Positions 8,806-45,491 of a stretch of 60,254 nt of DNA are shown piece after piece. Source of the stretch: a virus (lineage: Duplodnaviria > Caudoviricetes). The notes beneath the pieces are model-generated. The model did no database searches and was not told where the DNA came from. It saw nothing but the letters and a program-made list of their open reading frames with translations. Where the stretch lies: positions 1 to 60,254 of IMG/VR virus record IMGVR_UViG_3300045747_000144. The stretch is one strand, 5' to 3'. Position 1 is the stretch's first letter. Every line of letters begins with the position of its first letter. Both the position numbers and the translations under genes were made by a program.

Positions 8806-9522
8806 GAACTAATTTCGACCGCATACCAACGTATAAAACACCTTTGTTCATTTTGAACTCTGCAGATGTGACCAGTTCATATGTGTTTTCTATTATGTTA
8901 TAAACGGTCATTGTACCTTTTTTGGATAAACTTATTGCTTTTCTGACGGACTCACGCTTACAATGGTGCGCGTCACCCTTAGACAACATAGTTAATTGAC
9001 GTTTTCTGATGACTTCTTTAGATTTTAGAATAGTAGAAGAAATTAGTTTTCCCTGGTCTGATAATTTTTGTTTATGTGTATCCGATCGGGTCAAACTTAG
9101 TGCTGATACTGACATTTTTTGTTTGGTCTTGTCACTATGCGTTCTTGTACCAACAGATAATTTTCTGGCAACTGAACACATTTTTCTGCCATAATCATAA
9201 AGATGAGAAGTTACTCTATATTGTTTTTCTCTATGATGATTTTTATTTGACATTTGATAAAAAGCATAGTTTGCTTTCATCTTATATAGTTTGTCTTCAA
9301 ACATTTTGGTTAGAAGTAGGTGACATAAGAAATGTTCTTTGGCTGTAAGTTTAACAATATTGTTTTTGTCTGTTTCACCACCCATGTGGAACGATTTAGG
9401 TAATATGTGGTGTAATTCACCGTACCCGTCTTTATATTTTGAATTTTGACATATATTTAAGTACCACTTATAATACTTGTTGTGGGTAGAGATGGAATCT
9501 AGTATAGTTTTGTATTTTGCAT
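8789..9522 (-). mobile_element. Free-standing HNH homing endonuclease between the gp43 halves; probable start ATG is out of frame
   Basis: Frame upstream of the tracked ATG reads KYYKWYLNIC...GYGELHHILPKSFHMGGETDKNNIVKLTAKEHFLCHLLL; NUMOD3-like HSDKTKQKMS repeats; ATG at 9522 is one base out of frame. Confidence 0.85.
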
Positions 9523-9547
9523 GATTTATTAAAATTGTGTTATTGAT

Positions 9548-9555
9548 TATTTATA
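9548..9555 (-). promoter_or_regulatory. T4-type late promoter for the antisense HNH gene
   Basis: TATAAATA on the minus strand, just upstream of the HNH frame. Confidence 0.7.
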
Positions 9556-9562
9556 AAGGTCT

Positions 9563-26336: not shown

Positions 26337-27253
26337 TGGCAAAAGATCACTACTCTTGGGAATACCTATTGTGGCGAAGGTGGAAATTAAAATTCATAAA
26401 TTGGACTAGGAAGAGCTCCACGCACGATGAGTTTGAATTGTGGTATGCCACCCGTCGATATAAAGAGAATTGTCTCTGGCATCCAGAATTGAATAGGTAC
26501 ACAGTATTAACTGATAAACAGAATCTGTGGGAATGTTGGAATGCTGCTAGAGGAATTAAATACGTCTACATTACAGGATATCCAACGGCATAATATGAGT
26601 AAGTATACACCAGATAAGTGGGCAATCGTCAAAGTGGTTACTGAGGACTACACTGTACTTAGAATTATAGCGTCGTGGTATGGAGGTTTTGCTGGATCTA
26701 ATTCTTGGAAATTGAGTTCTGGAATAACAGGTATGACAATCAATGGAGATTGGTATGAGTTCACCAATGAGTCCGGATCGTTGTATTTTTGCAACAAGAA
26801 CTGTTATGGTATGTCGTCATATACTACTTCAATATACGGTGGGTTCCAGCGTGATTTTGATTCTATTCCGGGTTCTTCTATAGAGTTTTTAAACTGTGAA
26901 GATATTGAATCAGAGGTGGCTAAATGGACGACCTAATATATAGGTTGCGGAAGAGAGCAGAAATACGTCGGCAGATTAAAACAAGAAAGAGTGTGCAAGA
27001 AGGAGCACCAGATCGTATTTCAGATCTTCTAGAGGAAGCTGCAAATGAAATATCACTATTGCGTGCAGTAGGACCAAGTATGCTGCGTGGCACTAGCACT
27101 GACGGTTCAGAGTGGTGGGGAACAATGCTTGATGTCCTGAACGATTATAAAGATGCTGCTGATTGTGAGGCCGCAGAGGTAGACAGAATTAACAAGAGTA
27201 TCGACGAGTTTTACAAAGCCATATCTTATATTATGTCCAAGTATCATAAATAA
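26336..27253 (+). CDS. Three hypothetical ORFs (26336-26593, 26595-26936, 26924-27253)
   Basis: YTPDKW...SWYGGFAGSNSWKLSSGI and LRKRAEIRRQI..RKSVQEG.PDRISDLLEEAA resemble recurrent phage families. Confidence 0.7.
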
Positions 27254-27271: not shown

Positions 27272-27583
27272 ATGAAAAAAGACATATTAGGCTTAATCCC
27301 AAAGGAACTAAAGGGGAACGAGAAGCTAGAAATGTATAGAGATGGGCGTCTGGGTAAAGAGGGTAATGTCGGTATCCACAAAATTGATATTCATAATGGA
27401 AAACGACACTATTCCATTTCCCACCTAACCACTATTAACACCAAGTATAATATGGCGGGTGAATTGGTTGACGAACAGGGCAACACTATTGACCAGCTTC
27501 GTCATAAATATGACATCAAACGCACACCAAAGGCAATGCGCGAATCTAAAATAATGTCGTTTAAGGAATACTTAGAACAATGA
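27272..27583 (+). CDS. Late hypothetical protein with C-terminal SFKEYLE motif
   Basis: CATAAATA at 27245; GGAGG SD. Confidence 0.7.
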   Translation: MKKDILGLIPKELKGNEKLEMYRDGRLGKEGNVGIHKIDIHNGKRHYSISHLTTINTKYNMAGELVDEQGNTIDQLRHKYDIKRTPKAMRESKIMSFKEYLEQ

Positions 27584-27594
27584 AGAGGCAAATC

Positions 27595-27640
27595 ATTTCC
27601 TTATAAATATATCATCATTGATGGTTTATATGGGGAAAAT
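27595..27640 (+). promoter_or_regulatory. Late promoter within an RBS-sequestering hairpin
   Basis: TATAAATA at 27602; TTTCCTTATAAA can pair with TTTATATGGGGAAA. Confidence 0.6.
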
Positions 27641-29002
27641 ATGCAGCATTCGTTTAAAAATTGGTTGTTGGAGAATTTTGGGTCTGATTATGACTACTCT
27701 AGTTTGACTCCACATCACACGTACAAAACAAAAGACGGGCATGAAGTCAATATTCATGTATTCAACAACCCAAACGGCAAGCACGCAGTATTTCACAATA
27801 AATCCCTTGGTGGCGTTGTGACAAAAATAGTTCACTGGAACCACACTGCAGAGAGACCTTCCATGGAAGAGTTGGTCGCTATGGGTAAGGAAGACGAAGA
27901 ATTAAATGAGGAAGCCAAAGCGCTTACTGGCGATTCAGCAGGCAGAATAACAGAACATTCTGCCATTATTCATATGATTGGGCATAAGCATGCTCAAAAT
28001 AAAACCCACGGATCACCAGAGCATCAAGCTGAAATTGCTCACCATGAGGAAGCAATTAAAAAATTAGGTGGAGGCGCACATCCGCATCAAGTTGAAACAC
28101 GAGTAGAGCACGGCAAGGCGGCAGCAGCTGCAGCATTGGCATCAATCAAGTCAATACATGGGCCTCACGCAAAAATAGAATCGGTTGCTCATACATCAAA
28201 ACGTGGTGATATAGAAAAATTCACAAAGGGTGTTCACAAAGACACCCAAGAAAACCCATCAGATATGGGTGTTGAAGTATCAAACTCCGATAACCATAAA
28301 AATAAAAATAAGAGATTCTATCACGGTTATTCACTTAAGTCATCTGCCAAGGCCAGTAACATCACAGCGAAAAATCCAGGTATTCATATGCATGGTATTT
28401 TGGATGTTCCAAGTCGCAAATTGAATGCAGAAAAAGTATCCAGAGATGGTATCAAAGATGTGGTCAAAAAAATGGGGCATGAAGGTGTATCCGCTGCAGA
28501 TCGAGGCAGGATGATATCCAAATCCAGGGAAGAAGAGGGGACACACCCCAAACACGCAGATGCAAATAAAAGACTAACAAAAATTGAAGCAGAAGCAAAC
28601 GTCCATGGTAGAACAGCCAGAGAAAATGTTGCGACTGAATTACACGACCATATTCACCATCTAGTGAAGAATGGTCATCACGATAAGATATCTGGTATGC
28701 TTAAGTCGCACCTAACAGCAGAAACTAGTATGCGTTGGGATAAGATTCATGTTAAAGGTGACAACCCAGCTAAGGTTAAGGCTAGTGTTACCCCAGGAAG
28801 CGAATCCCCTCTATCCAAAATATTCAATGACCCTAAATCTAAATACGCAGTATCACGCAAAGGGTCCAGAGTGACTGTTCACCATGTCGATCCCACTACA
28901 GGTGATCATACAGACTTGGCGCACTATAGTCCAAAGACGAAAAGCAACATATTTAAGTCAGATGTTCATAATTGGAATGTTATGCCTGGGCATACGCACT
29001 AA
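27641..29002 (+). CDS. His-rich putative internal head protein with PD-(D/E)xK-like nuclease motif
   Basis: N-terminal SFKNWLLE; ENPSD...GYSLKS. Confidence 0.55.
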   Translation: MQHSFKNWLLENFGSDYDYSSLTPHHTYKTKDGHEVNIHVFNNPNGKHAVFHNKSLGGVVTKIVHWNHTAERPSMEELVAMGKEDEELNEEAKALTGDSAGRITEHSAIIHMIGHKHAQNKTHGSPEHQAEIAHHEEAIKKLGGGAHPHQVETRVEHGKAAAAAALASIKSIHGPHAKIESVAHTSKRGDIEKFTKGVHKDTQENPSDMGVEVSNSDNHKNKNKRFYHGYSLKSSAKASNITAKNPGIHMHGILDVPSRKLNAEKVSRDGIKDVVKKMGHEGVSAADRGRMISKSREEEGTHPKHADANKRLTKIEAEANVHGRTARENVATELHDHIHHLVKNGHHDKISGMLKSHLTAETSMRWDKIHVKGDNPAKVKASVTPGSESPLSKIFNDPKSKYAVSRKGSRVTVHHVDPTTGDHTDLAHYSPKTKSNIFKSDVHNWNVMPGHTH

Positions 29003-29032
29003 TAAATACAACATAATATTGATGGGAAACAC

Positions 29033-29632
29033 ATGCTAACATTTAAAGAATTCATAACAGAAGCACCCGCTGGTGACCACGCTCATCAATTGGGGCTAAG
29101 TCATATGGGATATGGGAGATACGGTAGAGATGGTAAAGTATCTCACGTTTCTAGAAACGATAAGTTGACCCATGTATCTAAGGTCAAAGACTTTAGCACA
29201 CTGCACGGTGGGCAATTAAAGCACTTAGAGCACGCTGATGATGAGGTATTTAATCATGGTTCCCATGGTGTCAGAAACATTGTTGACCATGTAAATGCAT
29301 TACGACATGGTGATGATAGAGTTAAAGTGTCCCAAAAGATTGATGGTTGTGTGCACGAAGATACTATTATCATGACTAATATGGGTGAGATTAAGATTAA
29401 GGATGTTACTACACAAACTACTGTTATGGGGCATGATTTTGGTGACGGGTTGGATAAAATGATTGATATAATAAACAAAACACAATCACCCTCCAATAAA
29501 CAGTGGGTTGAGGTATTCTTTGAAAATGAACAGTCCGTCAAGGTTACAGAAGATCATGAGATATTCACAACCAATCGTGGGTGGGTAGAGGCAGGACAAT
29601 TAACCGAAGCTGATAACGTACAAACAATGTAG
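29033..29632 (+). CDS. Ligase-like (KxDG) nucleotidyltransferase N-extein fused to split intein N-half
   Basis: MLTFKEFITE; HLEH; SQKIDG|CVHEDT (intein block A, Cys at 29348); VTEDHEIFT (block B); RGWVEAGQL. Confidence 0.9.
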   Translation: MLTFKEFITEAPAGDHAHQLGLSHMGYGRYGRDGKVSHVSRNDKLTHVSKVKDFSTLHGGQLKHLEHADDEVFNHGSHGVRNIVDHVNALRHGDDRVKVSQKIDGCVHEDTIIMTNMGEIKIKDVTTQTTVMGHDFGDGLDKMIDIINKTQSPSNKQWVEVFFENEQSVKVTEDHEIFTTNRGWVEAGQLTEADNVQTM

Positions 29633-29681
29633 ATGGGGTAAGGTGTCTTATTTGATAAATACATGTATAATCAAGGAGACG

Positions 29682-30449
29682 ATGATGAAATGCCCATATT
29701 GTAATATAGAAACAAGAAACCTAGGTAATCACACTAAGGGGTGCAACAACTACAAAAATCAAATTATAGCTGTTACATCATTCATGGATAAAAATATAGA
29801 AGAAATAAAACATCTATATATTGACGATGAATTTTCAGTTTCAGAAGTTGGAAACTGGATAAATGAAAAGTTAGGTACATCACTGACTGCCACATTCTTC
29901 TTTGATGAAAAAAGGGGGATTAAGTGGTGGATGACGAAACATAGTATATATCGCGGGGTAAGATTCACGAAACGTAGGTCCAAAAAAACTCGTGATACCA
30001 CATTAGAACGACATGGTGTAATGAATATTGGTTGCACCAAACAATATGGATGGAATAATACAAATAAAATAGAGTACGACAAGATATCGTACTTGACAGA
30101 CAAATTTTATGAATATGAAAATCTAGTAAAACGATTTACCAATAGGTCAGCAAAATTAAAAGATAAACCAGCTTATTGTGAATATACTGGTATCATGTTC
30201 ATTGATACAGAATTAGGTAGAGAAGTTAACCCAAATGACCCAAGGAAAAGGTCTATAGACCATAAGATACCTACTATATGGGGATATTTAAATCATATTT
30301 CACCTGAAGTTATAGGTGGAATAAATAACTTAGCATATGTGTTACGTTATGTCAATACAATTAAAGCAAATACTTTGTATGAATCTTTCATACCTATGGC
30401 AATTAAAATGAGGGAAGTTTTCAAAAATGAAGGTTACAAAAGTAATTAA
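29682..30449 (+). mobile_element. Free-standing HNH-type endonuclease between the split-intein halves
   Basis: CPYC...H...C zinc finger; RSIDHKIP...NNL...N..K; AAGGAG SD; late promoter GATAAATA at 29654. Confidence 0.8.
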
Positions 30450-31506
30450 ACTCGACTGTGGATATGATCAACATGACATATCCACAGCAACGGAGAACTT
30501 CTATACTAAAGTGGGAGATTCATGGGTTCTCATTCATAATTCACCATCAGTGGTTCTTGGAACTCACCCAGAAACTAAAAAATTCTTTGTTGCATCTAAA
30601 TCTGCTTTCAACAAAGACCCAAAAATCAATTACACCGATGAAGATATTGACCGCAACCATGGTCATGCTCCTGGTCTAGCTAAGAAACTAAAATCACTTC
30701 TAAAACACGGACACAAGCTGGGTATTAAAGGTGTTGCGCAGGGTGATATGCTTTATGATGAATCAGATAAGCACGAACACGAAGGCAAGATTCATTTTAA
30801 ACCAAACACTATCAAGTATTCTATTGATAAGAAGCATCCTGAGGGCAAGAAGGTAGCTAGATCAAAAATCGGTGTTGCGTTGCATACAGAGTATGATGAA
30901 AAGGGTAATGCTGTACTAAACCCACACATTAAAGTTAAAGAACATCCAGATGTTTATAATATGCCAGTGGCTGTGCATAAAGATAAGATGAAATTTGATC
31001 ATGCTAAACTGAAACATCATGCTTCTGAAATTGGTAAGAAGATGAAGGAAATTCCTAAAGAGGGATGGGATGCAGTATCACACCCTGCAGCGGCAGAGCA
31101 TGTCAAGACTTACATCAACCAAAAAGTCCGTAAAGGTGAAACGGATTATAATGTAGATGAACTCCAGAAGCACATTCATGGTAAGTATCAGAAAGAAATT
31201 GATAAAGTAAAATCTGATAAAGCGAAGAGTGCTAAGGCCCAAGAAAGAGATACCATATCAGGTCATGTTAATATCCATGCTCACCATTACAAGAAAGCAT
31301 TTGAAATTCAACATCACATTAACGCGGCAAAGCACCATGTTATTGATAGTTTAAACCACAACCAGACATTTGATCATCACTATGAAAATGGTGAAAAGGC
31401 ATCACCAGAAGGTTATGTAAGCATTGGTCACCACGGTCCAGTTAAATTTGTCAATCGTGGTGATTTTAGTCGTGCCAATTTTGCGATGTCAGCAAACAGG
31501 AAATAA
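30427..31506 (+). CDS. Split intein C-half (38 aa) fused to C-extein of the ligase-like protein
   Basis: MKVTKV...HDIST.TENF...VLIHN|SPS; extein KFFVASKSAFNK.PKIN, QGD, FKPNTI.Y, EGYV, VKFVNR..FS.ANF. Confidence 0.9.
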   Translation: MKVTKVIKLDCGYDQHDISTATENFYTKVGDSWVLIHNSPSVVLGTHPETKKFFVASKSAFNKDPKINYTDEDIDRNHGHAPGLAKKLKSLLKHGHKLGIKGVAQGDMLYDESDKHEHEGKIHFKPNTIKYSIDKKHPEGKKVARSKIGVALHTEYDEKGNAVLNPHIKVKEHPDVYNMPVAVHKDKMKFDHAKLKHHASEIGKKMKEIPKEGWDAVSHPAAAEHVKTYINQKVRKGETDYNVDELQKHIHGKYQKEIDKVKSDKAKSAKAQERDTISGHVNIHAHHYKKAFEIQHHINAAKHHVIDSLNHNQTFDHHYENGEKASPEGYVSIGHHGPVKFVNRGDFSRANFAMSANRK

Positions 31507-31507
31507 T

Positions 31508-32104
31508 ATGCTATCATTTAAAGAATTCATCTCAGAGTCGGAAAAAGAGAAACATTTTGCAATGACATACATGCGGGCTAATCCGCCGACTGTGGGTCAT
31601 TCTAAGGTAATTGCTGCAGTGGCAAAACATCCCGGAACACATAGGATTGTTGTTTCGCATTCTCAGGATGCAAAGAAGAACCCTTTGACTGGGGAGGAGA
31701 AGGCCACGTTTTTGCGGGTAGCACACCCAGAACACCATGACAATATACAAGCAGCAAGTACTGAGTCGCCCACCATACTTCACCACTTGGCAAAGTTGCA
31801 TTCTGAAGGTCACACCCACGGAAAGGTGATTGTTGGAGAGGATAGAATTAAGGAAATGAGTTCTCTGGTTAGCAAATATAATGGCGTCAAGGCAGGTCAT
31901 GGATATTACAACTTTAAGAAAGTAGATGTGGAATCTGCTGGGCACCGTGATCCTGATGCAGAAGGTGTTGAAGGCATGAGCGCAACCAAGATGAGAGATG
32001 CTGCTAAGACCGGTGACACCGAGAAGTTCAAATCTGGGTTACATCCAAACCTACACAAACATGCCACAGAAATCATGAGTAAAATTAAAGACAGATTAAA
32101 ATGA
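31508..32104 (+). CDS. Cytidyltransferase-like (HIGH superfamily) nucleotidyltransferase
   Basis: RANPPTVGH, SHSQD.KKNPL, VGEDR, SAG.RDPDAEGVEGMSATKMR; MLSFKEFISE N-terminus. Confidence 0.85.
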   Translation: MLSFKEFISESEKEKHFAMTYMRANPPTVGHSKVIAAVAKHPGTHRIVVSHSQDAKKNPLTGEEKATFLRVAHPEHHDNIQAASTESPTILHHLAKLHSEGHTHGKVIVGEDRIKEMSSLVSKYNGVKAGHGYYNFKKVDVESAGHRDPDAEGVEGMSATKMRDAAKTGDTEKFKSGLHPNLHKHATEIMSKIKDRLK

Positions 32105-32631
32105 TAACATTCAAAGAGTTTATATCTTCGACAACCGTTCGAAGATATACAGGTAAGAATGGGTTCTACGCATGGTTAAATGTTGCTCAAGACTCTTTAG
32201 AGGATATTCTAAAATATTTTTCTGATATAAAATTCACAACTGAGCAACTAGTTGACCTACATGTAACAGTCATGTATAGCAACACTCCCATTCCAGTATC
32301 TTGTGTGAACGAGAATAAAAAGATGCCGGATGCTACATTTATTCAATCGGTGCGGGCAAAAGAACTTGAATTTTGGGGTGGGCATTCCGGAAAGGGGTTC
32401 CTTGTTCTTAAATTGGATGCCAGTTATATCAAGCATTTGCACGAAAAATGGGTCAAATGTGGTGCAAAACCGACATTTCCTGAGTACACACCACATATGA
32501 CAATGATCACACCTTGCGATGATACATCAACATTGAAGAAGTTAATTGAGAAGTACAACGAGAAGTTAAATAAAGAACCGTTGCAGATTACATTGATACA
32601 AGAACAATGTGAAGATGTGAACGAAGATTAA
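32101..32631 (+). CDS. acb1: 2H phosphoesterase, T4 57B/Acb1-like (anti-CBASS candidate)
   Basis: Two HxT motifs (LHVTVMYS, YTPHMTM), LVLKL, GAKPTFPEY; MITFKEFIS N-terminus. Confidence 0.75.
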   Translation: MITFKEFISSTTVRRYTGKNGFYAWLNVAQDSLEDILKYFSDIKFTTEQLVDLHVTVMYSNTPIPVSCVNENKKMPDATFIQSVRAKELEFWGGHSGKGFLVLKLDASYIKHLHEKWVKCGAKPTFPEYTPHMTMITPCDDTSTLKKLIEKYNEKLNKEPLQITLIQEQCEDVNED

Positions 32632-32660
32632 TAAATACAATAAACACATAGGAATTAGCC

Positions 32661-34448
32661 ATGACCATTAAATCTCTCATCTCTGCAGACTTGTTGAATA
32701 CAGTTGAATCATACAATGAAACATTGCCTCAGCCGGAAGAACCTAATACTGATTATTCATACATTAAAACCGAGGGGTTGAATACATTAGCTGCATGGGG
32801 CGATAAAGAAGTAAATGAAGCAACTGGTCTAAGCCCAGCGCTACTATCAAGATATAAAAAAGGTGCGGGTGAATATGCATCATCTGCCGATAGTTTATCT
32901 AGCACATTCCACAAAATCGGTGACCATGAAACAGCCAAAAAATTTACAGACAAGTCCAACAAGAGATTTAGTGGTATTCTAAAAGCAACAAGAAAGCAAT
33001 TTGATAACGATAGTAACGGTATCAAAGAAGGTTTAGCAGATGACTTTTTATCTATGGCTAAGGGCATGAAGAATCCAAACGGTTCCCCGCGGTTCGCAAA
33101 TGCTAGAATTGTGACGCCAGAAGAGAAGATTAAAGAACGCCAAGCATTGGACGCTAAACGTGCTGAAGAGTTAAAAAATAACCCCCCAAAACCTAGAGTG
33201 TATGCAGATGATGAAAAAGATGACAATTCCAGAGGATATGGCAAGGGCCGTTATATGGGTGATTCTGTTGAATACGCAGGATTGGATAGTATAATTGAAG
33301 GTAGAATGGTTCCCACGCACAACGCATCAGGCAAACCAAATCCAAACCACCCTGCATACTCTAAACACAAAGCTGCTTATGATTCAGAACAAGCTGAAGT
33401 TGAGGCATCAACATTTTCACTCAAAAATCAAGATGCACGCAACAAAGCCGCCAAAAAACCAACAGAGAATCCAGTCAAGATGTCTCATATTGATGATGCT
33501 ATTGGTTCATCATATCCAGATGTAGAACCATATGATCATCTATCAAGGCAGTTTCCAGAATTACATAAACAGAATAAGTTGTCAGATATGGCAGACAAAG
33601 CAATACGTGCAAATACAAAACACAAGTCATTCTCACATTATACTGACGATATGTATAAGCAATTTAAAGCTGACTCTGATCACGACGAGAAAATGATGGG
33701 TGAAGACACAGTCCTAGATGAACAATCCGCACAAGAATTCATGGCTAATGCAATGAATAGCATTGATCCTCAACACAGGTCTGCAGCGAGAAAGACATAC
33801 CGCGATGCCAGAAACCGGGGAATGACACACGCATCAGCATTGACAAATATGTACAATAAGCATAGAAAGGTAAATGAATCTGTATCACAATTAGATGAAG
33901 TTCGCATGCCGCTGCAAGGTCATCCTTATCACGACAAAACAGATGACCAACTTAAGTATATTATTAAGGATGCAGGAGAGGCAGCTAGAGCACAAAAGGG
34001 TATGTCCTCAGAGGGAAAGTATTTAGACCAAGTTAATGATGCCACAACTGTATTGTATCATAGAAAAAAACAACAAGTTAAAGAAGCATTCCAGGCAGTT
34101 ATGCCACAACCTCAACGTGGTCCAACACAAGTAGAGATGGACAAAGCCCAAGCTCATGTCAAGAAGGCACACCCAGGAATGAAGTTAAATGGTGTGGCTA
34201 TTGGAATGGATGGCAAGGTTAATGTAAAGGCAGTTAAAACAGCAAGTTCAGTGGTCGAAGAATCTGAACTGACAGAACTAGACACTTCAACATACAAAGA
34301 ATATTTGCAAGGAAGAAAACAGTCGGGCAAACCAAACTCCATCCACAAGGCAGTTAAACAGGCTCTTGGCGTCAGAATTGCAAAAGAAAAACTCCAAGCT
34401 AAAGAGGCCAAGGCAAAAGCTGATTCAATGGGCAAAGTTTATCAATAA
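32661..34448 (+). CDS. Putative internal head polyprotein
   Basis: Late promoter at 32630; many (L/I/V)xE sites; charged, low-complexity blocks. Confidence 0.6.
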   Translation: MTIKSLISADLLNTVESYNETLPQPEEPNTDYSYIKTEGLNTLAAWGDKEVNEATGLSPALLSRYKKGAGEYASSADSLSSTFHKIGDHETAKKFTDKSNKRFSGILKATRKQFDNDSNGIKEGLADDFLSMAKGMKNPNGSPRFANARIVTPEEKIKERQALDAKRAEELKNNPPKPRVYADDEKDDNSRGYGKGRYMGDSVEYAGLDSIIEGRMVPTHNASGKPNPNHPAYSKHKAAYDSEQAEVEASTFSLKNQDARNKAAKKPTENPVKMSHIDDAIGSSYPDVEPYDHLSRQFPELHKQNKLSDMADKAIRANTKHKSFSHYTDDMYKQFKADSDHDEKMMGEDTVLDEQSAQEFMANAMNSIDPQHRSAARKTYRDARNRGMTHASALTNMYNKHRKVNESVSQLDEVRMPLQGHPYHDKTDDQLKYIIKDAGEAARAQKGMSSEGKYLDQVNDATTVLYHRKKQQVKEAFQAVMPQPQRGPTQVEMDKAQAHVKKAHPGMKLNGVAIGMDGKVNVKAVKTASSVVEESELTELDTSTYKEYLQGRKQSGKPNSIHKAVKQALGVRIAKEKLQAKEAKAKADSMGKVYQ

Positions 34449-34488
34449 TATTTCCTGATAAATATATCACAAAACATTGATGGGCACC

Positions 34489-35286
34489 ATGAAGAAATTT
34501 ACACAACTATTGAACGAAGTCAAAACTGCTCCTGAGCAGCTTAATGGGGCAACTGCCCTGCGAGAATCTTACGTTAACGGTGATATATTTCAAATTGGTG
34601 CGCTTGTCAAAACCAACAAAGGTATTGCTGAAATTATAAACCGTGGCCCTAATTATGTAACATTAGTTAAAGAGGGTGCAATATTCAAACGGTGGATAAC
34701 AGACATTTCAGAGACAGATTCCCAGTCTACCAAACAATCCAAAATATACAAAGAGTCATTTGTAGTTAATGGATATAAAACGGTCAACTTCTCAAAACAA
34801 TTAGCAGAAAAATTCAATGAGGTTGCCAAAGTGCACCCAGACAAATTTGCACTTTTCACCTGCGCAGTATGCTGTGATAAATTACTTGGTGCGTCTGCAG
34901 AAGAATTAGTAGAGAACTTCGACAAGTTTAGAATTGAATTTGATAGGGCAAGTAAATATCTATCAAAATTTGATATAGTGGTTGAGGAAATGGGCGCTAT
35001 AGAAGACAAGCTACTAGAATATGCTCTATTTGAAGGTGTTAAATTTTCAGCCACAAACAAACACAAAGTGGCCACCATTATTTCTGGGGCTGTTGGTCAC
35101 AAGTCAACAAGTAGAGACCCAACAGATATCATTCACGGTTCAATAGATCATGTTAAGAAGAACAGATACTCTGAAGAGCAATGGAAAATATTAGGCAAGA
35201 TGCTAAATAAAGCAACTGAGGCTGGTATTAAATGGGACAAGGCCAGGTTACACGCAATCACACAACAATTTATGGGGTTAAAATAA
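34489..35286 (+). CDS. Putative internal protein; resembles the C-terminal domain of T4-like phage cytidyltransferases
   Basis: MKKFTQLLNE; LRESYVNGDIFQIG...EIINRGPNYV...KRWITD. Confidence 0.6.
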   Translation: MKKFTQLLNEVKTAPEQLNGATALRESYVNGDIFQIGALVKTNKGIAEIINRGPNYVTLVKEGAIFKRWITDISETDSQSTKQSKIYKESFVVNGYKTVNFSKQLAEKFNEVAKVHPDKFALFTCAVCCDKLLGASAEELVENFDKFRIEFDRASKYLSKFDIVVEEMGAIEDKLLEYALFEGVKFSATNKHKVATIISGAVGHKSTSRDPTDIIHGSIDHVKKNRYSEEQWKILGKMLNKATEAGIKWDKARLHAITQQFMGLK

Positions 35287-35546
35287 TGTCAGATCAAATC
35301 AAACGTGCTGCTGAATTAATGATCAGCGAAGGTGTTTTAGATACCATCAAAGGTGCATATATTGTCGAATCAAAAGATACAGTCACTATTCATCATCCAG
35401 GTCACAGACTACACGGTAAAAGCGCCAGTGTTTTCTTTAGACATCCTGATGGTGCAGTAAACTCTCAAGTTACCAATTCATCCAGAAAAGGTGACGTGAC
35501 AAATTTGACATTGAAACCTGGTCAATTTAAAGAATCAGCAGAATAA
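35286..35546 (+). CDS. Hypothetical protein (possible internal protein)
   Basis: TAATG-coupled; ISE/IVE sites. Confidence 0.6.
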   Translation: MSDQIKRAAELMISEGVLDTIKGAYIVESKDTVTIHHPGHRLHGKSASVFFRHPDGAVNSQVTNSSRKGDVTNLTLKPGQFKESAE

Positions 35547-35561
35547 TAAGAAGGAAATATA

Positions 35562-35843
35562 ATGGATCATAAAGAAAAAGCAGCGACAAAATGGGCAGCG
35601 TATAAGAACGGTGGATGGAACGTCACCGACGTTGTAAGCACAGAAGATAACTCCGTATTCTTCTCTGAAAAAGATAATGTGTATAGGAAACATGAATTTA
35701 CATTTAACGACGCAGTTGTTACATTGTCTGCTCCTATTAATTTCAAAGTACCTGTAGTAATTATTGCAGAAGTTGAACCGGAACCTATTGTAGTCGTTCA
35801 ACAACCAGTCACCAAAGTATCAAAGAAAAAGGGAGCAAAATAA
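35562..35843 (+). CDS. Hypothetical protein
   Basis: AAGGA SD. Confidence 0.65.
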   Translation: MDHKEKAATKWAAYKNGGWNVTDVVSTEDNSVFFSEKDNVYRKHEFTFNDAVVTLSAPINFKVPVVIIAEVEPEPIVVVQQPVTKVSKKKGAK

Positions 35844-37009
35844 TGGGTCTAAAATCAGTAATCACTAGCGAATTGTTAGAATCGGTATTGGCATACAATT
35901 CTATACAAGAGTCGTTTGAAGTTAAGAACTCCGAAGGTAAGGTTGTTCATACTGCGTTCTCGCAATCAGCGGCAGAGAAAAAGGCAGCTGAACTAACTAC
36001 AGAAGGCAATAAACATTCTGTGGCATTCAATAGAACAGCTGCAGTGACAGAGGGTACCATGCACCCGGCCGGCGCAACTCTGTTAAAACATATCAAACCA
36101 GAGCATCACGAGAAGTACAAGAAATTTTTGCAAAAAGGCACATTCAATGGGTCTTACAGTGATCGTGCATCAGTATTGAATGCAGCTAAAAGCGCAGGAC
36201 ACCTTATCTCTGAAAGTGTAGAAGAAGATGATGCTACACCTACAGGATATTCTGGTAGCCGTCACACACCTGAAGAGATTGAAAATGGCAAGAAGAGAAA
36301 GAAAGAGAACGAGCGAAATGAATGGGCAGCAAAGAATGGTCGCAAAGTTCAAGGAAATTATGGTAAAGCATTTGACACGAATATCGAAGGTGATGAGATC
36401 AAACCCCGTGCAAAGGTTGACCCAAATAGACGCCGTGGACGTCCTAGCAAGGCCGAGTCTAATACAGGCGAAACATTTGACTCCACAGGATTGGCAAAGG
36501 TATCCTGGTTGAATATGGGTAAGACTACTTTACCTAAAGGTAAGGGTAGAAAAATTACACCAATGGCAACTGGTGACAAAAATGAATTGCCAGAAGCAGT
36601 TAAAATGGGTGGTGCTGAACTAGACGGTTCCGCCGATAACGCTAGACAATTTGCCAAAAAGGGAACAGGCGACACCAAAGTGTCAGCAGCATCTAAATTT
36701 TATCAGATGCAAACATCAATAAGTGATGAGGACATTAATAAGTTGCAAGCAACTCTAGGTGCAGGCGCAACCAATATCCCTCAGCATTCTAAACATGGTG
36801 TGTCATTGTGTATGCAAAAAGAAGGATACCAATACTCTTATGATATTTCTGTTGCAGGTAATATCCTAAAAGAAGGCGTTGGTATCACAGAATCAGGTAT
36901 TCTAGCAGAAGCAACAAGATTCATGGAATCTGTACTAGCAGAAGCAGAGAGAATTGATAGTCAATCCGATCGTATCAAAGATATTATTAGAACAGCTGTC
37001 AATAAATAA
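35843..37009 (+). CDS. Putative internal head polyprotein with AT-hook-like motif
   Basis: N-terminus resembles ORF 32661; RRRGRPSK; xxE sites. Confidence 0.6.
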   Translation: MGLKSVITSELLESVLAYNSIQESFEVKNSEGKVVHTAFSQSAAEKKAAELTTEGNKHSVAFNRTAAVTEGTMHPAGATLLKHIKPEHHEKYKKFLQKGTFNGSYSDRASVLNAAKSAGHLISESVEEDDATPTGYSGSRHTPEEIENGKKRKKENERNEWAAKNGRKVQGNYGKAFDTNIEGDEIKPRAKVDPNRRRGRPSKAESNTGETFDSTGLAKVSWLNMGKTTLPKGKGRKITPMATGDKNELPEAVKMGGAELDGSADNARQFAKKGTGDTKVSAASKFYQMQTSISDEDINKLQATLGAGATNIPQHSKHGVSLCMQKEGYQYSYDISVAGNILKEGVGITESGILAEATRFMESVLAEAERIDSQSDRIKDIIRTAVNK

Positions 37010-43876: not shown

Positions 43877-45491
43877 TAAATATTAGATTTGGTGATATGT
43901 TTTATAAATTAGCTAGTATTTTTTTCACTTCAGATCTGCATGGGACTAGAGTTATTCTATCCATATCAGAAATGGTGTGGGCATTAACACTATTTTGGCC
44001 AGGTGTGACGTTTGATAGGCCAACATATAAAATTATGGCAGAGATTTGCTCCGAGGAATATTGGGCATTTGCATTCTTAGTGTCGTCAATTATACAATTT
44101 TACTTGGTTATCAAAAATAAATATCACAGCAAGTTCGCTCAAATATTCGCAGGTGCAAACTCCCTATTTTGGTGGTTTGTTGTTATAGCCATGTATAATT
44201 CTGTCAGTCCTCCTCCAGCTGCAATATCTGGAGAATTGGGATTGGCTATTGGTGCGTCTTGGATATTCATTAGGTCTGGTTACAAAACAAGAATAATAAG
44301 AGGCAACGAATATGTTTGATTGGGGCTCACTGACCTTTGCAACACTAGTTGCATCACTTGCAACTTTTTTGTTTTTGTGGCTATTGCAAGTTACAATAAA
44401 AACATTGTTTATAAACTACACAAACAATCTGGTTGATGAGAGAAACTATACCTGTTTGCGGTGTGTAGATATAGAAATGATAAAAACAGATATTAGGTTA
44501 TTAAAAACCGAAGTTATCGTTATACAAGAAATAATTGATCGTGGGAGTATATGATGAAATCATGGTTCATTAAAATAGTAGGTGTTTTGGTGTTCATGTT
44601 ATCTTTTATGATAGGCATGATAATATATCAGTCGGCAATTCCTACTCACCCACCCATAAAAGACAATCTTATATCTTATAATGTTACCAAAACCTCTGAA
44701 TTTATTATGGTTGAGGTGTCAGTGGATGCCATTGTGGAAAGTTCGTTCTCTGCTAAATTGAGTAGGTTATTGGTTCACGAATCTGGGTATCAACTGGAAA
44801 TTCAGGCAGTTGATGTAAATTATTCTGAAGGTGCGAATGATGTCCATAGAATATTTTACTTACCTAAAAATATGAGACCAGGTAAATATTGTGTTAGTAC
44901 TATACTAGAATGGCGTCCGATGTTTTCTCTTACCGATAAGATAAACACAATAGATCAGGGGTGCTTCGAACTATGAGCAACAATAACATACACATACCTG
45001 CTGCGCCGGCAACGCGCAATATTTGGCAAGGTGAGGAAAGAAGGGGGACTCCACTTAACCCGTCAGATCACACTTTGTATCTGCATCTAAAGGACGAAAT
45101 TAAAAGCCATCAAGAAATTATATTCAATGAACTCCGTGAGCATACGGTAGATGAGATGGGTAGGTTTAAGGACATATTAGATGAAATCAGAGCAACGTCA
45201 GACCACACCCGGATTCAGCATTCTAAATTGTCAGAAATGATCTCTGAAACTATAAAAGAAATAAACAAGCTTTCTGATGTTCAAAAGACTATTGTGTCTG
45301 CTTTCCCTAGGGGCATCGAGGGGTTACAAACACACAGTTTGTATCATCAGGAGGAAGAGGATGCAAAAAAGGGAAAAATAGAGATAATCAATGAGATAAA
45401 GAAGAAAGTTATGGCAGGTGCAGTTTGGGCAGCAATAAGTTTATTTGGATATGTTATAATAGATTGGTTCAAGACCCAGTTGCATAAATAA
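43873..45491 (+). CDS. Four membrane-anchored proteins (43873-44319, 44312-44554, 44551-44976, 44973-45491), possible lysis or holin-like cluster
   Basis: Multiple or single hydrophobic segments; overlapping start/stop codons. Confidence 0.5.

What the first reader, a model, noticed from the sequence alone, without database searches (positions are those of the whole stretch)
27272..37009. Cluster of enzymes tagged for capsid packaging: a putative injected toolkit
Seen: consecutive late genes start MQHSFKNWLLE, MLTFKEFITE, MLSFKEFISE, MITFKEFIS and MKKFTQLLNE. Established: T4 internal proteins use a 10 aa capsid-targeting sequence (IPIII MKTYQEFIAE) that gp21 removes, and they are injected with the DNA. 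The tagged cargo here is catalytic: a nuclease-like protein, a KxDG ligase-like transferase, a HIGH nucleotidyltransferase and a 2H phosphoesterase. Inference: a pre-made nucleotide/nucleic-acid processing or counter-defence system acting before phage transcription begins.
Basis: partly seen in the sequence, partly recalled or inferred. Interest (0 to 1): 0.82.

Follow-up and report, generated by a model that had tools for sequence, protein, structure and literature searches.

The report
Capsid-address tags on phage enzymes
A water-dwelling relative of phage T4 puts the short tag that T4 uses to load proteins into its head onto several enzymes, including one of a family that destroys bacterial alarm signals, so they are probably carried inside the virus particle, though this phage has never been tested.

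Summary
Observation confirmed. ORFs at 27641, 29033, 31508 and 34489 start with M-x(2-3)-[FY]-x2-hydrophobic-[ILV]-x-E, the pattern of the T4 IPII/IPIII capsid targeting sequence (CTS). ORF 32101 starts MITFKEFISS, closest to the T4 IPI leader. The window is a 27%-complete contig of a T4-like aquatic myovirus.

The leader is conserved on orthologues (DUF6267: 73 of 76) and sits on about 12 unrelated families. Four of 5 relatives encode the gp21-type protease. Published virion proteomes (S-SM1, S-CREM2) contain the leader-bearing 'cytidylyltransferase'.

Cargo here:
- a weakly PD-(D/E)xK-like protein;
- an RNA-ligase-fold DUF6267 enzyme;
- an HxGH nucleotidyltransferase and its split-off C-terminal domain;
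- an Acb1-family (anti-CBASS) phosphodiesterase with both HxT motifs.

Packaging is likely (about 0.7). Injection and counter-defence are inferred. One coordinated toolkit is not supported: only DUF6267 plus the nucleotidyltransferase recur together. This scan noted the same leader phenomenon before on other genomes. A sequence look-up in the scan's notes found no Acb1 look-alike; the split-intein cargo I saw in no listed note.

The parts
27272..27583 (+). 103-aa basic ORF. Its last nine residues (27554-27580, MSFKEYLEQ) are a leader-like motif followed directly by a stop. Possibly a relic of a cargo-gene junction. ATAAATA lies 26 nt upstream (27246-27252).
   Evidence: No family in Pfam, PHROGs or NCBIfam. 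No relatives by the search for related loci.
27641..29002 (+). 453-aa His/Lys-rich protein with leader MQHSFKNWLLE. Candidate PD-(D/E)xK-type nuclease with an 'SD...SxK' motif (E105, D208, S231, K233 invariant).
   Evidence: 78 homologues. In 35 aligned sequences F5 and E11 are at least 90% conserved. Model pLDDT 87.5, leader residues 1-16 below 50. Best fold matches are MspI Z 5.7 and HinP1I Z 5.3, both under the reliable range. Foldseek found nothing at E <= 0.001.
29033..29347 (+). N-extein of the DUF6267 RNA-ligase-like enzyme. It holds leader MLTFKEFITE, then a ~45-aa 'GYGRY' module, then motif I KIDG (residues 102-105).
   Evidence: The intein-less close relative P0240 reads QKIDG-SPSVVFGTHPETKKFF across the junction.
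29348..29632 (+). N-terminal half of a split intein, starting at Cys106 and ending in a stop codon.
   Evidence: TIGR01445 intein_Nterm 25.9 bits against a cut-off of 24.5. Pfam Intein_splicing E 5.5e-4, below its cut-off. Best solved relative is the NrdJ-1 intein, E 5.2e-5. The same KxDG|C junction occurs in 10 other sequences of the 13 read.
29643..30449 (+). Free-standing ORF between the intein halves, in a different frame (probable start ATG 29682, with ATAAATA at 29655-29661). It has a Cys cluster and a DHKIP...N...N motif, so it is probably an HNH-type homing endonuclease.
   Evidence: No Pfam, PHROGs or NCBIfam family at threshold. Atlas feature hits are all below 0.9, several of them HNH clusters, so a lead only.
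30427..30540 (+). C-terminal half of the split intein (38 aa), ending in ...VLIHN.
30541..31506 (+). C-extein of the DUF6267 enzyme, starting at Ser39 (SPSVV...). It carries no leader of its own.
   Evidence: Pfam DUF6267 245 bits, residues 39-354. Alignment to 21 uninterrupted orthologues. Fold of orthologue L046: NgrRnl 5cot Z 9.1, Trl1 Z 8.2, T4 Rnl2 Z 7.9.
31508..32104 (+). 198-aa HxGH-class nucleotidyltransferase (the cyanophage 'cytidylyltransferase', T4-GC190) with leader MLSFKEFISE. TVGH at residue 28, MSATKMR at residue 157.
   Evidence: PHROG 3041 at 5e-53. Pfam CTP_transf_like 18.5 bits, below its cut-off of 21. Profile against PDB gave only weak PPAT/NMNAT/MJ0951 hits. Orthologue leaders. 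Virion MS of homologues.
32101..32631 (+). 176-aa Acb1-family 2H phosphodiesterase. It starts MITFKEFISS (no Glu at position 10). HxT motifs at H54 and H132.
   Evidence: Pfam Acb1 66.9 bits against a cut-off of 27. Solved Acb1 chains 9q2g at 4e-15 and 7t26 at 3.5e-5, with both HxT motifs aligned. Nearest homologues carry full leaders. T4 IPI comparison.
32661..34448 (+). 595-aa Lys/Glu-rich protein of no known family. Its first ~20 residues (MTIKSLISADLLNTVESYN) are shared only with ORF 35843. ATAAATA lies 30 nt upstream.
34489..35286 (+). 265-aa protein with leader MKKFTQLLNE. Residues ~6-90 are homologous to the domain that follows the nucleotidyltransferase domain in longer relatives, so this is a separated domain with its own leader. 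ATAAATA lies 31 nt upstream.
   Evidence: PHROG 395 at 1.4e-7. 12 blastp hits, 9 of them in the same ORF as the nucleotidyltransferase hit. Syn19_174 C-terminal part.
35286..35843 (+). Two small ORFs (86 and 93 aa) of unknown function, without the leader.
35843..37009 (+). 388-aa protein of no known family. It shares the second N-terminal motif (MGLKSVITSELLESVLAYN) with ORF 32661.
   Evidence: (pairwise E 0.002 over residues 1-37 only)

Best explanation
The region is a late-expressed 'head cargo island' of a T4-like aquatic myovirus.

Five of its proteins begin with a T4-type capsid targeting sequence. This is a ~10-residue, probably helical leader with an aromatic residue at position 4 and a hydrophobic one at position 7 (the targeting determinants in T4), followed by [ILV]-x-Glu at positions 8-10 (the gp21 cleavage determinants in T4).

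Inferred steps:
1. The leader binds the scaffolding core while the prohead assembles, so the proteins are enclosed.
2. The gp21-type prohead protease then cuts after Glu10 in four of them. The Acb1-like protein has Ser at position 10 and, like an Asp10 mutant of T4 IPIII, would be loaded but not trimmed there.
3. The mature proteins stay in the DNA-filled head and, by analogy with T4 IPI-III and Alt, leave with the DNA.

The cargo is a collection, not one pathway:
- A conserved pair: an RNA-ligase-fold DUF6267 enzyme and an HxGH nucleotidyltransferase, fused in some phages. Their substrate is unknown; strand sealing or nucleotide activation is most likely.
- Variable additions: here a restriction-enzyme-like protein, the separated C-terminal domain of the nucleotidyltransferase, and an Acb1-family phosphodiesterase that would degrade cyclic-oligonucleotide defence signals from the first moment of infection.

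The DUF6267 gene is broken at its catalytic KxDG motif by a split intein with an inserted endonuclease-like gene. The leader sits on the N piece only, so the full enzyme can be loaded only after protein trans-splicing.
For: Shown here:
- The leaders are present and match T4 IPII/IPIII, read from NC_000866.
- The codons differ between leaders while the residues are kept.
- The leader is kept on orthologues: DUF6267 73 of 76, with the other 3 starting MRHIFTLLRE; the nucleotidyltransferase family in 76 of 81 sources, which are 80 loci plus the window; and F5 and E11 at 90% or more in 35 aligned sequences of the 453-aa family.
- An orthologue of the 453-aa protein in complete relative G002 sits at a different genome place and still carries the leader.
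- About a dozen mutually unrelated families carry it.
- In both AlphaFold models the leader is a low-confidence short helix outside the folded domain.
- A Peptidase_S77 (gp21) gene is present in 4 of 5 relatives searched, including both complete ones.
- The window holds T4-type gp13/14, gp15, gp16, gp17, gp43, UvsX and gp41.
- ATAAATA (the T4 late-promoter core) lies 17-40 nt before 10 + strand start codons, including 27272, 27641, 29033, 32661, 34489 and 37034.

From papers:
- CTS residues 4 and 7 target, residues 8 and 10 direct processing, Asp10 blocks processing but not loading, and CTS fusions are delivered into cells (PMC9026906, passages).
- T-even internal proteins are diverse defence blockers that share only the CTS (PMC3012670, passages; PMC12373910, abstract).
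- T4-GC190 'cytidylyltransferase' was detected in S-SM1 virions (PMC3037559, section 26 passage and supplement rows). Its sequence starts MKKFSAFLNE (supplement file 3).
- S-CREM2 ORF154 was detected in virions (PMC10665884, Table 3 passage and section 19) and starts MKNFSSFLTE.

A natural contrast:
- The cyanophage DUF6267 homologue I read (Syn19_173) has no leader, and its cluster T4-GC71 carries no proteomic flag in the same table.

Acb1 branch:
- Of the window protein's 10 nearest homologues, 4 have the leader with Glu10 at the start. The other 6 carry a leader-like motif ending in Glu at residues ~36-45, or ~84-93 in P0088.
Against: - No virion of this phage or of a close relative has been analysed.
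- The window holds no head protease, scaffold or major capsid gene (the contig is 27% complete), so the protease is inferred from relatives.
- Enrichment inside the window alone is not significant (p = 0.079).
- The S-CREM2 authors themselves warn that abundant non-structural proteins may co-purify with virions.
- No paper I saw maps an N-terminus cut after the leader.
- Five of the 17 T4-GC190 entries printed in the supplement lack the leader: P-HM1, P-HM2, Syn1, S-PM2p139 and the small S-ShM2_072. The tag is therefore not obligatory for the family.
- The Acb1-like leader lacks Glu10, and most Acb1-family proteins have no leader at all (strict pattern in 6 of 158).
- Injection is untested for any of these proteins.
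- The nuclease assignment rests on Z 5-6 matches, which the tool marks as within the range of chance arrangements.
Confidence: 0.68

Rival explanations
1. The proteins are loaded into the prohead through the leader, but they work inside the capsid or during assembly. They might be scaffold-core accessories, DNA-condensing proteins, or enzymes that seal or process nicks in packaged DNA. They are degraded or retained rather than delivered as effectors.
For: - Most are basic (pI 8.9-9.4 for 27641, 30427, 31508, 32661, 34489 and 35843), like DNA-associated internal proteins.
- A ligase-fold enzyme could act on packaged DNA.
- T4 core proteins are also gp21 substrates (PMC9026906 passages).
Against: - An Acb1-family cyclic-nucleotide phosphodiesterase has no obvious substrate in a capsid.
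- In T4, proteins carrying a CTS are delivered into the cell.
- Enzymes are needed in few copies, unlike scaffolds.
Confidence: 0.14
2. The ligase-like enzyme, the 2H phosphoesterase and the nucleotidyltransferase form one RNA healing-and-sealing pathway, as in fungal or plant tRNA ligase. It would be pre-loaded to undo tRNA or mRNA cleavage by host anticodon nucleases.
For: - The DUF6267 fold matches RNA ligases, including the Trl1 ligase domain (Z 8.2) and NgrRnl (Z 9.1).
- Trl1-type repair uses a 2H cyclic phosphodiesterase (established knowledge, recalled).
- The 2H protein has a weak 2_5_RNA_ligase2 hit, 4.3e-4.
Against: - The 2H protein matches Acb1 far better than RNA-repair 2H families: 66.9 bits, and 4e-15 to solved Acb1.
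- At blastp E 1e-5 it had no match in any of the 81 loci that hold the ligase-like and nucleotidyltransferase pair, so it is not a conserved partner.
- No polynucleotide kinase is present in the cluster.
Confidence: 0.1
3. The shared N-terminus is not a protein address. It is a by-product of a mobile DNA cassette (late promoter, ribosome site, first codons) that spreads by recombination and drives gene shuffling or expression.
For: - Three leader genes share ATAAATA-N-CATTGATGG upstream of the ATG.
- A relic leader sits at the end of ORF 27272.
- Modular shuffling through promoter cassettes is described for T4-like phages (PMC2839356 and PMC4122927, search listing only).
Against: - The leaders differ at synonymous sites while the residues at positions 4, 7, 8 and 10 are kept.
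- The same residue pattern holds over orthologues 30-60% identical.
- Some Acb1-like homologues have the motif internally, after an N-terminal extension, where no promoter is involved.
- A cassette may well explain how the tag spreads, but it does not explain why it is conserved.
Confidence: 0.06

Closest known systems
Capsid targeting sequence of phage T4 internal proteins IPI, IPII and IPIII (Mullaney and Black 1996, as described in reviews PMC9026906 and PMC3012670)
   Same: - A ten-residue N-terminal leader with an aromatic residue at 4, Phe or another hydrophobic at 7, Ile/Leu at 8 and Glu at 10. T4 IPII/IPIII read MKTYQEFIAE; the window has MLTFKEFITE and MLSFKEFISE.
- It sits on otherwise unrelated proteins.
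- The phage lineage has the gp21-type protease.
- The window's Acb1-like leader MITFKEFISSTT matches T4 IPI MKTFKEFTSTTT in 9 of 12 positions (my count). IPI also lacks Glu10.
   Different: - The cargo here is mostly predicted enzymes of 176-453 aa, not small inhibitor proteins.
- The genes lie in one late cluster next to head-completion genes.
- One cargo gene is split by an intein.
- Loading, cleavage and injection are untested.
T4 Alt (ADP-ribosyltransferase packaged in the head and processed by gp21)
   Same: An enzyme carried in a T4-type head and trimmed by the prohead protease (PMC9026906 passages).
   Different: Different enzyme families. The Alt propeptides were not compared here.
Acb1 anti-CBASS phosphodiesterase (T4 gene 57B; solved chains 7t26 and 9q2g)
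   Same: Pfam Acb1 above its cut-off. Both catalytic HxT motifs align to solved Acb1.
   Different: - The window protein and its nearest relatives carry a CTS-type leader, which most of the family lacks (strict pattern in 6 of 158).
- Activity and substrate range are untested.
- T4 57B lies next to ipI and starts MMEFKDFST, with Phe at 4 and 7. I found no statement that it is packaged (listing and abstracts only).
Cyanophage core 'cytidylyltransferase' T4-GC190 (Sullivan et al. 2010, PMC3037559; S-CREM2 ORF154, PMC10665884)
   Same: The same family as ORF 31508 (42-48% identity over the listed cyanophage hits), with the same leader. It is known from virion proteomes.
   Different: - The window version is the short 198-aa form.
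- The C-terminal domain found in the 386-aa cyanophage form is a separate gene here (34489) with its own leader.
- In the parts of these two papers that I read, the protein's presence in virions is not tied to a CTS.
Fractured genes: split intein plus free-standing homing endonuclease (Dassa et al. 2009, PMC2677866)
   Same: [quoted passage not shown]
- A late-promoter-like element lies before the inserted gene.
- The arrangement occurs mainly in phages (abstract and passages).
- The nearest solved intein is NrdJ-1.
   Different: - The host protein is DUF6267. It is not named among the host enzyme types in the passages I read, though one host of unknown function is mentioned there.
- The inserted ORF looks HNH-like, not GIY-YIG or Vsr-like, on weak evidence.
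- The broken gene encodes a leader-tagged head cargo.
ATP-dependent RNA ligases (Naegleria NgrRnl/Rnl5, fungal Trl1 ligase domain, T4 Rnl2 and Rnl1)
   Same: - Fold match of the DUF6267 model: 5cot Z 9.1 (185 aligned, rmsd 3.9), 9r3w Z 8.2, 2hvq Z 7.9, 9do4 Z 7.3.
- Nearly invariant K62-x-D64-G65, E367-G368 and K379.
   Different: - No sequence-level match to any solved ligase, and no Foldseek match at E <= 0.001.
- A large helical insert separates the N-terminal motifs from the EG and K motifs.
- No OB or other known C-terminal domain was recognised.

Membership tests
T4-type CTS-directed head cargo (internal proteins) | N-terminal ~10-residue leader with the targeting residues (aromatic at 4, hydrophobic at 7) | tested here: met
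   Five ORFs have it. The T4 reference sequences were read. The roles of the residues come from PMC9026906.
T4-type CTS-directed head cargo (internal proteins) | Prohead-protease motif [I/L]-x-Glu at positions 8-10 | tested here: met
   Met for 27641 (LLE), 29033 (ITE), 31508 (ISE) and 34489 (LNE). Not met for 32101 (ISS).
T4-type CTS-directed head cargo (internal proteins) | The phage encodes a gp21-type (Peptidase_S77) prohead protease | tested here: inconclusive
   No match in the window, which is only a 27%-complete contig. Found in 4 of 5 relatives that carry the same cargo genes.
T4-type CTS-directed head cargo (internal proteins) | The same leader on mutually unrelated proteins | tested here: met
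   219 leader-bearing ORFs fall into about 12 unrelated clusters plus singletons.
T4-type CTS-directed head cargo (internal proteins) | Protein present in purified virions with the leader removed, and delivered into the host | not testable with these tools
   Only homologues of the nucleotidyltransferase are reported in virions. No N-terminal mapping or injection data were seen.
Acb1 (PF23474), 2H phosphoesterase | Profile match above the curated cut-off | tested here: met
   66.9 bits against a cut-off of 27. 4e-15 to solved Acb1 chain 9q2g.
Acb1 (PF23474), 2H phosphoesterase | Two catalytic H-x-T motifs | tested here: met
   HVTV at 54 and HMTM at 132, aligned to HVTV and HLTL of solved Acb1. 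Entry 9q2y has Ala in place of the first His.
Acb1 (PF23474), 2H phosphoesterase | Hydrolysis of CBASS cyclic oligonucleotides | not testable with these tools
   Needs an enzyme assay.
Covalent nucleotidyltransferases (ATP-dependent RNA/DNA ligases) and Pfam DUF6267 | Motif I KxDG with the catalytic lysine | tested here: met
   KIDG at residues 102-105 of the N piece. K62, D64 and G65 are nearly invariant in 24 aligned sequences. DUF6267 scores 245 bits.
Covalent nucleotidyltransferases (ATP-dependent RNA/DNA ligases) and Pfam DUF6267 | Adenylyltransferase fold | tested here: met
   The model of orthologue L046 (pLDDT 87.8) matches NgrRnl at Z 9.1 and Trl1 at Z 8.2, followed by many ligases at Z 6-8. 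A majority of the top 50 Foldseek rows are ligases, though none reaches E <= 0.001. The fold was predicted for an uninterrupted orthologue, not for the window's two pieces.
Covalent nucleotidyltransferases (ATP-dependent RNA/DNA ligases) and Pfam DUF6267 | Self-adenylylation and strand joining | not testable with these tools
   Needs an enzyme assay.
HxGH (HIGH) nucleotidyltransferases | (H/T)xGH and SxTxxR signature motifs | tested here: met
   TVGH at 28 and MSATKMR at 157. G30, H31, S158, K161 and R163 are invariant or nearly so.
HxGH (HIGH) nucleotidyltransferases | Profile match above a curated cut-off | tested here: inconclusive
   Pfam CTP_transf_like 18.5 bits against a cut-off of 21. 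TIGR00482 NMNAT 17.3 bits against 112. PHROG 3041 at 5e-53, which has no curated cut-off. Profile against PDB gave E 3.7e-4 to 0.6.
PD-(D/E)xK nucleases (MspI/HinP1I-like) | Restriction-endonuclease-like core fold | tested here: inconclusive
   MspI Z 5.7 (172 aligned, rmsd 5.7) and HinP1I Z 5.3 (209 aligned), then Cas4-family, Dna2 and SwaI at Z 4-5. All are under the tool's reliable range. The Foldseek best is HinP1I at E 0.53.
PD-(D/E)xK nucleases (MspI/HinP1I-like) | Acidic and lysine catalytic residues | tested here: inconclusive
   E105, D208, S231 and K233 are invariant in 35 sequences. Their equivalence to the MspI/HinP1I 'SD...QxK' motif is recalled, not aligned here.
Split intein in a fractured gene | Intein N-terminal splicing region starting with Cys directly after the N-extein | tested here: met
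   TIGR01445 25.9 bits against a cut-off of 24.5, residues 106-179. Cys106.
Split intein in a fractured gene | C-terminal His-Asn followed by a Ser/Thr/Cys that is the first extein residue, restoring the uninterrupted protein | tested here: met
   ...LIHN|SPSVV at residues 37-39. Orthologues read K-x-D-G-S-P-S/A without a gap. P0240 is the intein-less allele.
Split intein in a fractured gene | [quoted passage not shown] | tested here: inconclusive
   Three ORFs in three different frames are shown. The endonuclease nature of the middle ORF rests on a sequence motif and on Atlas leads below 0.9.

The most novel reading that the evidence does not exclude
This lineage carries an Acb1-family cyclic-oligonucleotide phosphodiesterase pre-made in its capsid and releases it with the DNA. 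CBASS-type signalling would then be blunted before any phage gene is expressed. This would be the first enzyme of the signal-degrading anti-defence class shown to be virion-delivered. In parallel, the universally paired RNA-ligase-fold DUF6267 enzyme and HxGH nucleotidyltransferase would be an injected repair or nucleotide-restoring module common to aquatic T4-like phages. The leader would also let a phage's injected proteome be read from sequence alone.
Probability: 0.3. Interest if true: 0.75.

Novelty: new member of a known kind. Interest (0 to 1): 0.55.

Why it matters
T4-like phages are among the most abundant viruses in water. What they carry into the cell besides DNA decides the first minutes of infection.

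If the leader is a dependable address tag, several things follow:
- The packaged proteome of uncultured phages can be predicted from sequence.
- The long-noted but unexplained presence of a 'cytidylyltransferase' in cyanophage particles gets a mechanism.
- A new question becomes testable with existing T4 tools: do phages pre-load signal-degrading anti-defence enzymes such as Acb1?

The intein-split cargo gene adds a natural case in which protein splicing must precede head loading.

Tried and rejected
- Megablast of the whole region against 50,697 phage records: no match.
- Peptidase_S77 in the window: none, which is uninformative on a 27% fragment.
- TATAAATA (4 sites against 5.9 expected) and ATAAATA (20 against 22 expected) are not enriched as plain counts. 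Only their strand and their distance to start codons are suggestive.
- phmmer of single sequences against PDB found nothing for DUF6267 or the nucleotidyltransferase, and only chance rows for the 453-aa protein.
- Foldseek against PDB gave no match at E <= 0.001 for either model.
- The search for related loci with the Acb1-like protein and with ORF 27272 found no relatives.
- The second shared N-terminus (32661 and 35843) was sought in the 80 loci, G001 and G002. It was found only in the window, plus one unrelated-looking hit, so nothing can be said about its spread.
- The idea that T4's own Acb1 (57B) is CTS-tagged was considered. It has Phe at 4 and 7 but fails the strict pattern, and the loose pattern occurs in 21 of 158 family members. 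It stays a lead only.
- The hit at 45156 is an internal Met (residue 72 of ORF 44961-45491) and was treated as chance.
- No complex prediction, read mapping or RNA search was run. None bears on the main claim.

Full report
**What the window is.** The window is a whole IMG/VR virus record of 60,254 bases, estimated 27% complete. PHROG matches identify a T4-like myovirus. They include:
- a split gp43 DNA polymerase, UvsX and the gp41 helicase;
- head-completion gp13/14, the gp15 tail-sheath stabiliser and the gp16/gp17 terminase;
- Hsp20 and a QueE-like protein.

The large terminase is about 46% identical to those of Methylophilales phage Melnitz, marine cyanophages and Pelagibacter phage HTVC008M. 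The region itself has no nucleotide match in 50,697 phage records. No tRNA genes were found.

**The observation.** All five quoted N-termini are present at ATG codons on the + strand.
- A tight pattern scanned over six frames hit five times, all on the + strand between 27554 and 32101.
- A broader pattern, M-x(2-3)-[FY]-x2-[FYLIVMW]-[LIVMT]-x-E, also accepts T4 IPII and IPIII as read from the T4 record. It hit 27641, 29033, 31508, 34489 and one internal Met at 45156.
- Twenty mononucleotide shuffles gave a mean of 0.05. That is a weak control, because shuffling removes ORFs.
- Inside the window alone, first-Met against later-Met enrichment is not significant: 3 of 72 against 2 of 246, p = 0.079.

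The weight of the evidence therefore comes from relatives, described next.

**Conservation of the leader.**
- *Nucleotidyltransferase.* The query found 505 related stretches in IMG/VR, and 80 loci were kept. Nearly all orthologues start with MKSFLEIIEE, MKSFLELVEE, MLSFNKFLAE, MKSFTQYLVE and the like, at the Met aligned to the query's Met1.
- *DUF6267.* Of 76 full-length orthologues, 73 match the pattern. The other three start MRHIFTLLRE.
- *The 453-aa protein.* It has 78 homologues. In 35 aligned sequences F5 and E11 are conserved at 90% or more.
- *Position in the genome.* In the complete relative G002, the orthologue of the 453-aa protein lies about 137 kb away from the other cargo genes and still has the leader MRNFKNWLTE.
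- *Overall count.* Over the 80 loci plus the window, 207 of 1412 first-Met positions match, against 12 of 5701 later ones. Of the 219 hits, 218 are on the gene strand. This figure is biased, since the loci were chosen through a tagged gene.
- *Range of cargo.* The 219 tagged ORFs fall into about a dozen mutually unrelated clusters. These include a HAD-motif protein, a 260-aa family, 92-aa basic proteins and another 453-aa family.
- *Protein-level selection.* The leaders in the window differ at synonymous sites while keeping the residues.
- *Structure.* In both structure models the leader is a low-confidence short helix outside the fold.

**Comparison with T4.**
- T4 IPII and IPIII start MKTYQEFIAE, and IPI starts MKTFKEFTSTTTPVSTITE.
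- According to the review PMC9026906 (passages read), only the first 10 residues of IPIII are needed for loading. Residues 4 and 7 carry targeting, residues 8 and 10 carry processing, and Asp at position 10 blocks cleavage but not loading.
- The same review says CTS fusions to foreign proteins are packaged at 20-200 copies and delivered into the host.
- PMC3012670 (passages) describes the T-even internal proteins as diverse anti-restriction proteins that share only the CTS. PMC12373910 (abstract) shows that Ip2 and Ip3 block Type IV restriction enzymes.
- The window's leaders keep exactly these four positions.
- The Acb1-like protein's MITFKEFISSTT matches the IPI leader in 9 of 12 positions (my count). 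Like IPI it lacks Glu10. It has no later [ILV]-x-E before the folded domain, so I expect loading without trimming.
- The gp21-type protease (Pfam Peptidase_S77) is absent from this fragment. It is present in 4 of 5 relatives searched, including both complete ones.

**Experimental support from papers.**
- Sullivan et al. 2010 (PMC3037559; the section 26 passage, supplement file 2 rows and supplement file 3 entries were read) list T4-GC190 'cytitidyltransferase' as a cyanophage core gene detected in purified S-SM1 virions.
- The S-SM1 protein starts MKKFSAFLNE. Twelve of the 17 GC190 entries printed carry such a leader. P-HM1, P-HM2, Syn1, the fusion protein S-PM2p139 and the small S-ShM2_072 do not.
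- The S-CREM2 paper (PMC10665884; Table 3 passage and section 19 read) detects its cytidylyltransferase ORF154 in virions. It remarks that such enzymes are frequently found in cyanophage virion proteomes, and it warns of possible co-purification. ORF154 starts MKNFSSFLTE.
- Conversely, Syn19_173, the cyanophage DUF6267 homologue I read, starts without a leader. Its cluster T4-GC71 has no proteomic flag in the same table.
- A full-text search for 'capsid targeting sequence' together with 'cyanophage' found one paper, the T4 review. In the parts of the two cyanophage papers that I read, no CTS is mentioned.

**The cargo proteins.**
1. *ORF 27641.* The model is confident (pLDDT 87.5). Its best structural matches are the restriction enzymes MspI (Z 5.7) and HinP1I (Z 5.3), followed by other PD-(D/E)xK nucleases. 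All are below the range the tool calls reliable. E105, D208, S231 and K233 are invariant. 'Nuclease-like' is a reasonable but weak call.
2. *DUF6267.* Pfam gives 245 bits on the C piece. An uninterrupted orthologue (model pLDDT 87.8) matches NgrRnl (Z 9.1), the Trl1 ligase domain (Z 8.2), T4 Rnl2 (Z 7.9), Rnl1 (Z 7.3) and DNA ligases. K-x-D-G, E-G and a later Lys are nearly invariant.
3. *ORF 31508.* This is an HxGH-class nucleotidyltransferase. PHROG 3041 matches at 5e-53, and the TVGH and MSATKMR signatures are present. Curated profiles stay below their cut-offs, and the links to PPAT, NMNAT and MJ0951 are weak. Its substrate is unknown.
4. *ORF 34489.* Its first ~90 residues are homologous to the domain that follows the nucleotidyltransferase domain in longer relatives. 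Nine of its 12 blastp hits lie in the same ORF as the nucleotidyltransferase hit (see also Syn19_174). It is a separated domain that has its own leader.
5. *ORF 32101.* This is Acb1 family: 66.9 bits against a cut-off of 27, and 4e-15 to solved Acb1. Both HxT motifs align.

**The Acb1 branch.**
- Among the 10 nearest homologues of the window protein, four start with a full leader: MKTFRQFLNE, MKTFKQYLNE, MISFKQWLFE and MITFKQFLIE.
- The other six carry a leader-like motif ending in Glu after an N-terminal extension of about 35 residues, or about 85 in one case.
- Across 158 family members examined, only six fit the strict pattern, with a few near variants. Most start without any leader.
- The tag therefore defines a small sub-branch.
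- In T4 the Acb1 gene 57B lies directly beside ipI.

**Is it one system?**
- DUF6267 and the nucleotidyltransferase are a true pair. Both occur in all 81 loci. The gap between them is at most 100 nt in 57 loci, and one inserted gene accounts for most of the rest.
- They are fused in PHROG 455 and in S-PM2p139.
- The Acb1-like protein and the 453-aa protein had no match at E 1e-5 in any of those loci.
- I therefore read the cluster as a variable cargo island built around a conserved pair, not as one pathway.

**The fractured ligase-like gene.**
- The N piece ends ...VSQKIDG, followed by Cys106 and an intein N-terminal region. TIGR01445 scores 25.9 bits against a cut-off of 24.5. The nearest solved relative is the NrdJ-1 intein at 5.2e-5. 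A stop codon follows.
- ORF 29643-30449 comes next, in another frame. Its probable start is at 29682, with ATAAATA 27 nt upstream. It has a Cys cluster and a DHKIP...N...N motif. Only sub-threshold leads point to HNH endonucleases.
- The C piece, in the third frame, begins with 38 intein residues ending in ...LIHN. It then continues SPSVV..., exactly where uninterrupted orthologues read K-x-D-G-S-P-S.
- P0240, 65% identical over the N-extein, is the intein-less allele. Of the 13 homologous sequences I read, 10 have the same KxDG|C junction and end after the N-terminal intein half.
- This is the 'fractured gene' arrangement of Dassa et al. 2009 (PMC2677866; abstract and passages read).
- Only the N piece carries the leader, so the complete enzyme can be loaded only after trans-splicing. 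This is an inference.
I did not re-test that.

**Expression.** ATAAATA, the core of the T4 late promoter, is not enriched as a plain count: 20 sites against 22 expected. However, 19 of the 20 sites are on the + strand. Ten lie 17-40 nt upstream of + strand start codons, including 27272, 27641, 29033, 32661, 34489 and 37034. Late expression is therefore likely but not shown.

**Relation to earlier notes of this scan.** The same leader phenomenon, the ligase fold of DUF6267 and the link to cyanophage virion proteomes were noted before on other genomes. One such note carries the flag that part of it fell on a later check. I reached the S-CREM2 paper before reading these notes, and I re-tested the fold and the leader conservation here.

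**Verdict.** The best reading is a T4-type capsid-address tag on a set of mostly enzymatic cargo proteins. Packaging is likely. Cleavage after Glu10 is likely for four of the five. Injection and counter-defence are plausible by analogy but untested. This is a known mechanism with new cargo. The Acb1-family member and the intein-split cargo gene are the points worth an experiment.

Noticed in passing
window 32661-32720 and 35843-35902: Two otherwise unrelated proteins (595 and 388 aa) share a second N-terminal motif, MTIKSLISADLLNTVESYN and MGLKSVITSELLESVLAYN (pairwise E 0.002 over residues 1-37 only). Some Acb1-like homologues from other samples start MTIKSDILP... before an internal leader-like motif. 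This may be a second kind of address or pro-region.
   Followed up: partly
window 29063-29200; also L001 5788-5920 (Syn19_174): A ~35-45-aa module (consensus roughly L-x-L-x-H-x-G-Y-G-R-Y...G-x-V-x-H-x-S...L) follows the leader in the window's DUF6267 N piece. In cyanophages it follows the leader of the nucleotidyltransferase instead. The transferable N-terminal unit may therefore be longer than ten residues.
   Followed up: no
window 27554-27583: ORF 27272 ends with a leader-like MSFKEYLEQ directly before its stop codon, 58 nt upstream of the next leader-bearing gene. It looks like a relic of recombination between leader-coding sequences, or a C-terminal copy of the tag.
   Followed up: partly
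window 27596-27640, 28996-29032, 34452-34488: Three leader genes share the upstream string ATAAATA-(12-17 nt)-(C/T)ATTGATGG before the start codon. This suggests a promoter, ribosome-site and leader cassette that may move as a unit.
   Followed up: partly
L105 (T4 NC_000866) 9592-10411: In T4 the internal protein gene ipI lies directly next to 57B (Acb1). 57B starts MMEFKDFST, with Phe at positions 4 and 7 as in a CTS. It fails the strict pattern, and I found no report that it is packaged.
   Followed up: partly
window 7804-11272: The gp43 DNA polymerase is in two ORFs (7804-8805 and 9563-11272) with a reverse-strand ORF (8789-9385) between them. It is a second broken gene on the same contig as the fractured ligase-like gene.
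   Followed up: no
L054, L067, L068 (IMG/VR loci): In three related loci the DUF6267 gene is in two ORFs (118 and 251 aa) without an intein, split at a different place from the window's.
   Followed up: no
window 45156-45491: An internal Met of ORF 44961-45491 is followed by MGRFKDILDE, which fits the leader pattern. It was treated as chance, but the true start of this gene was not examined.
   Followed up: no
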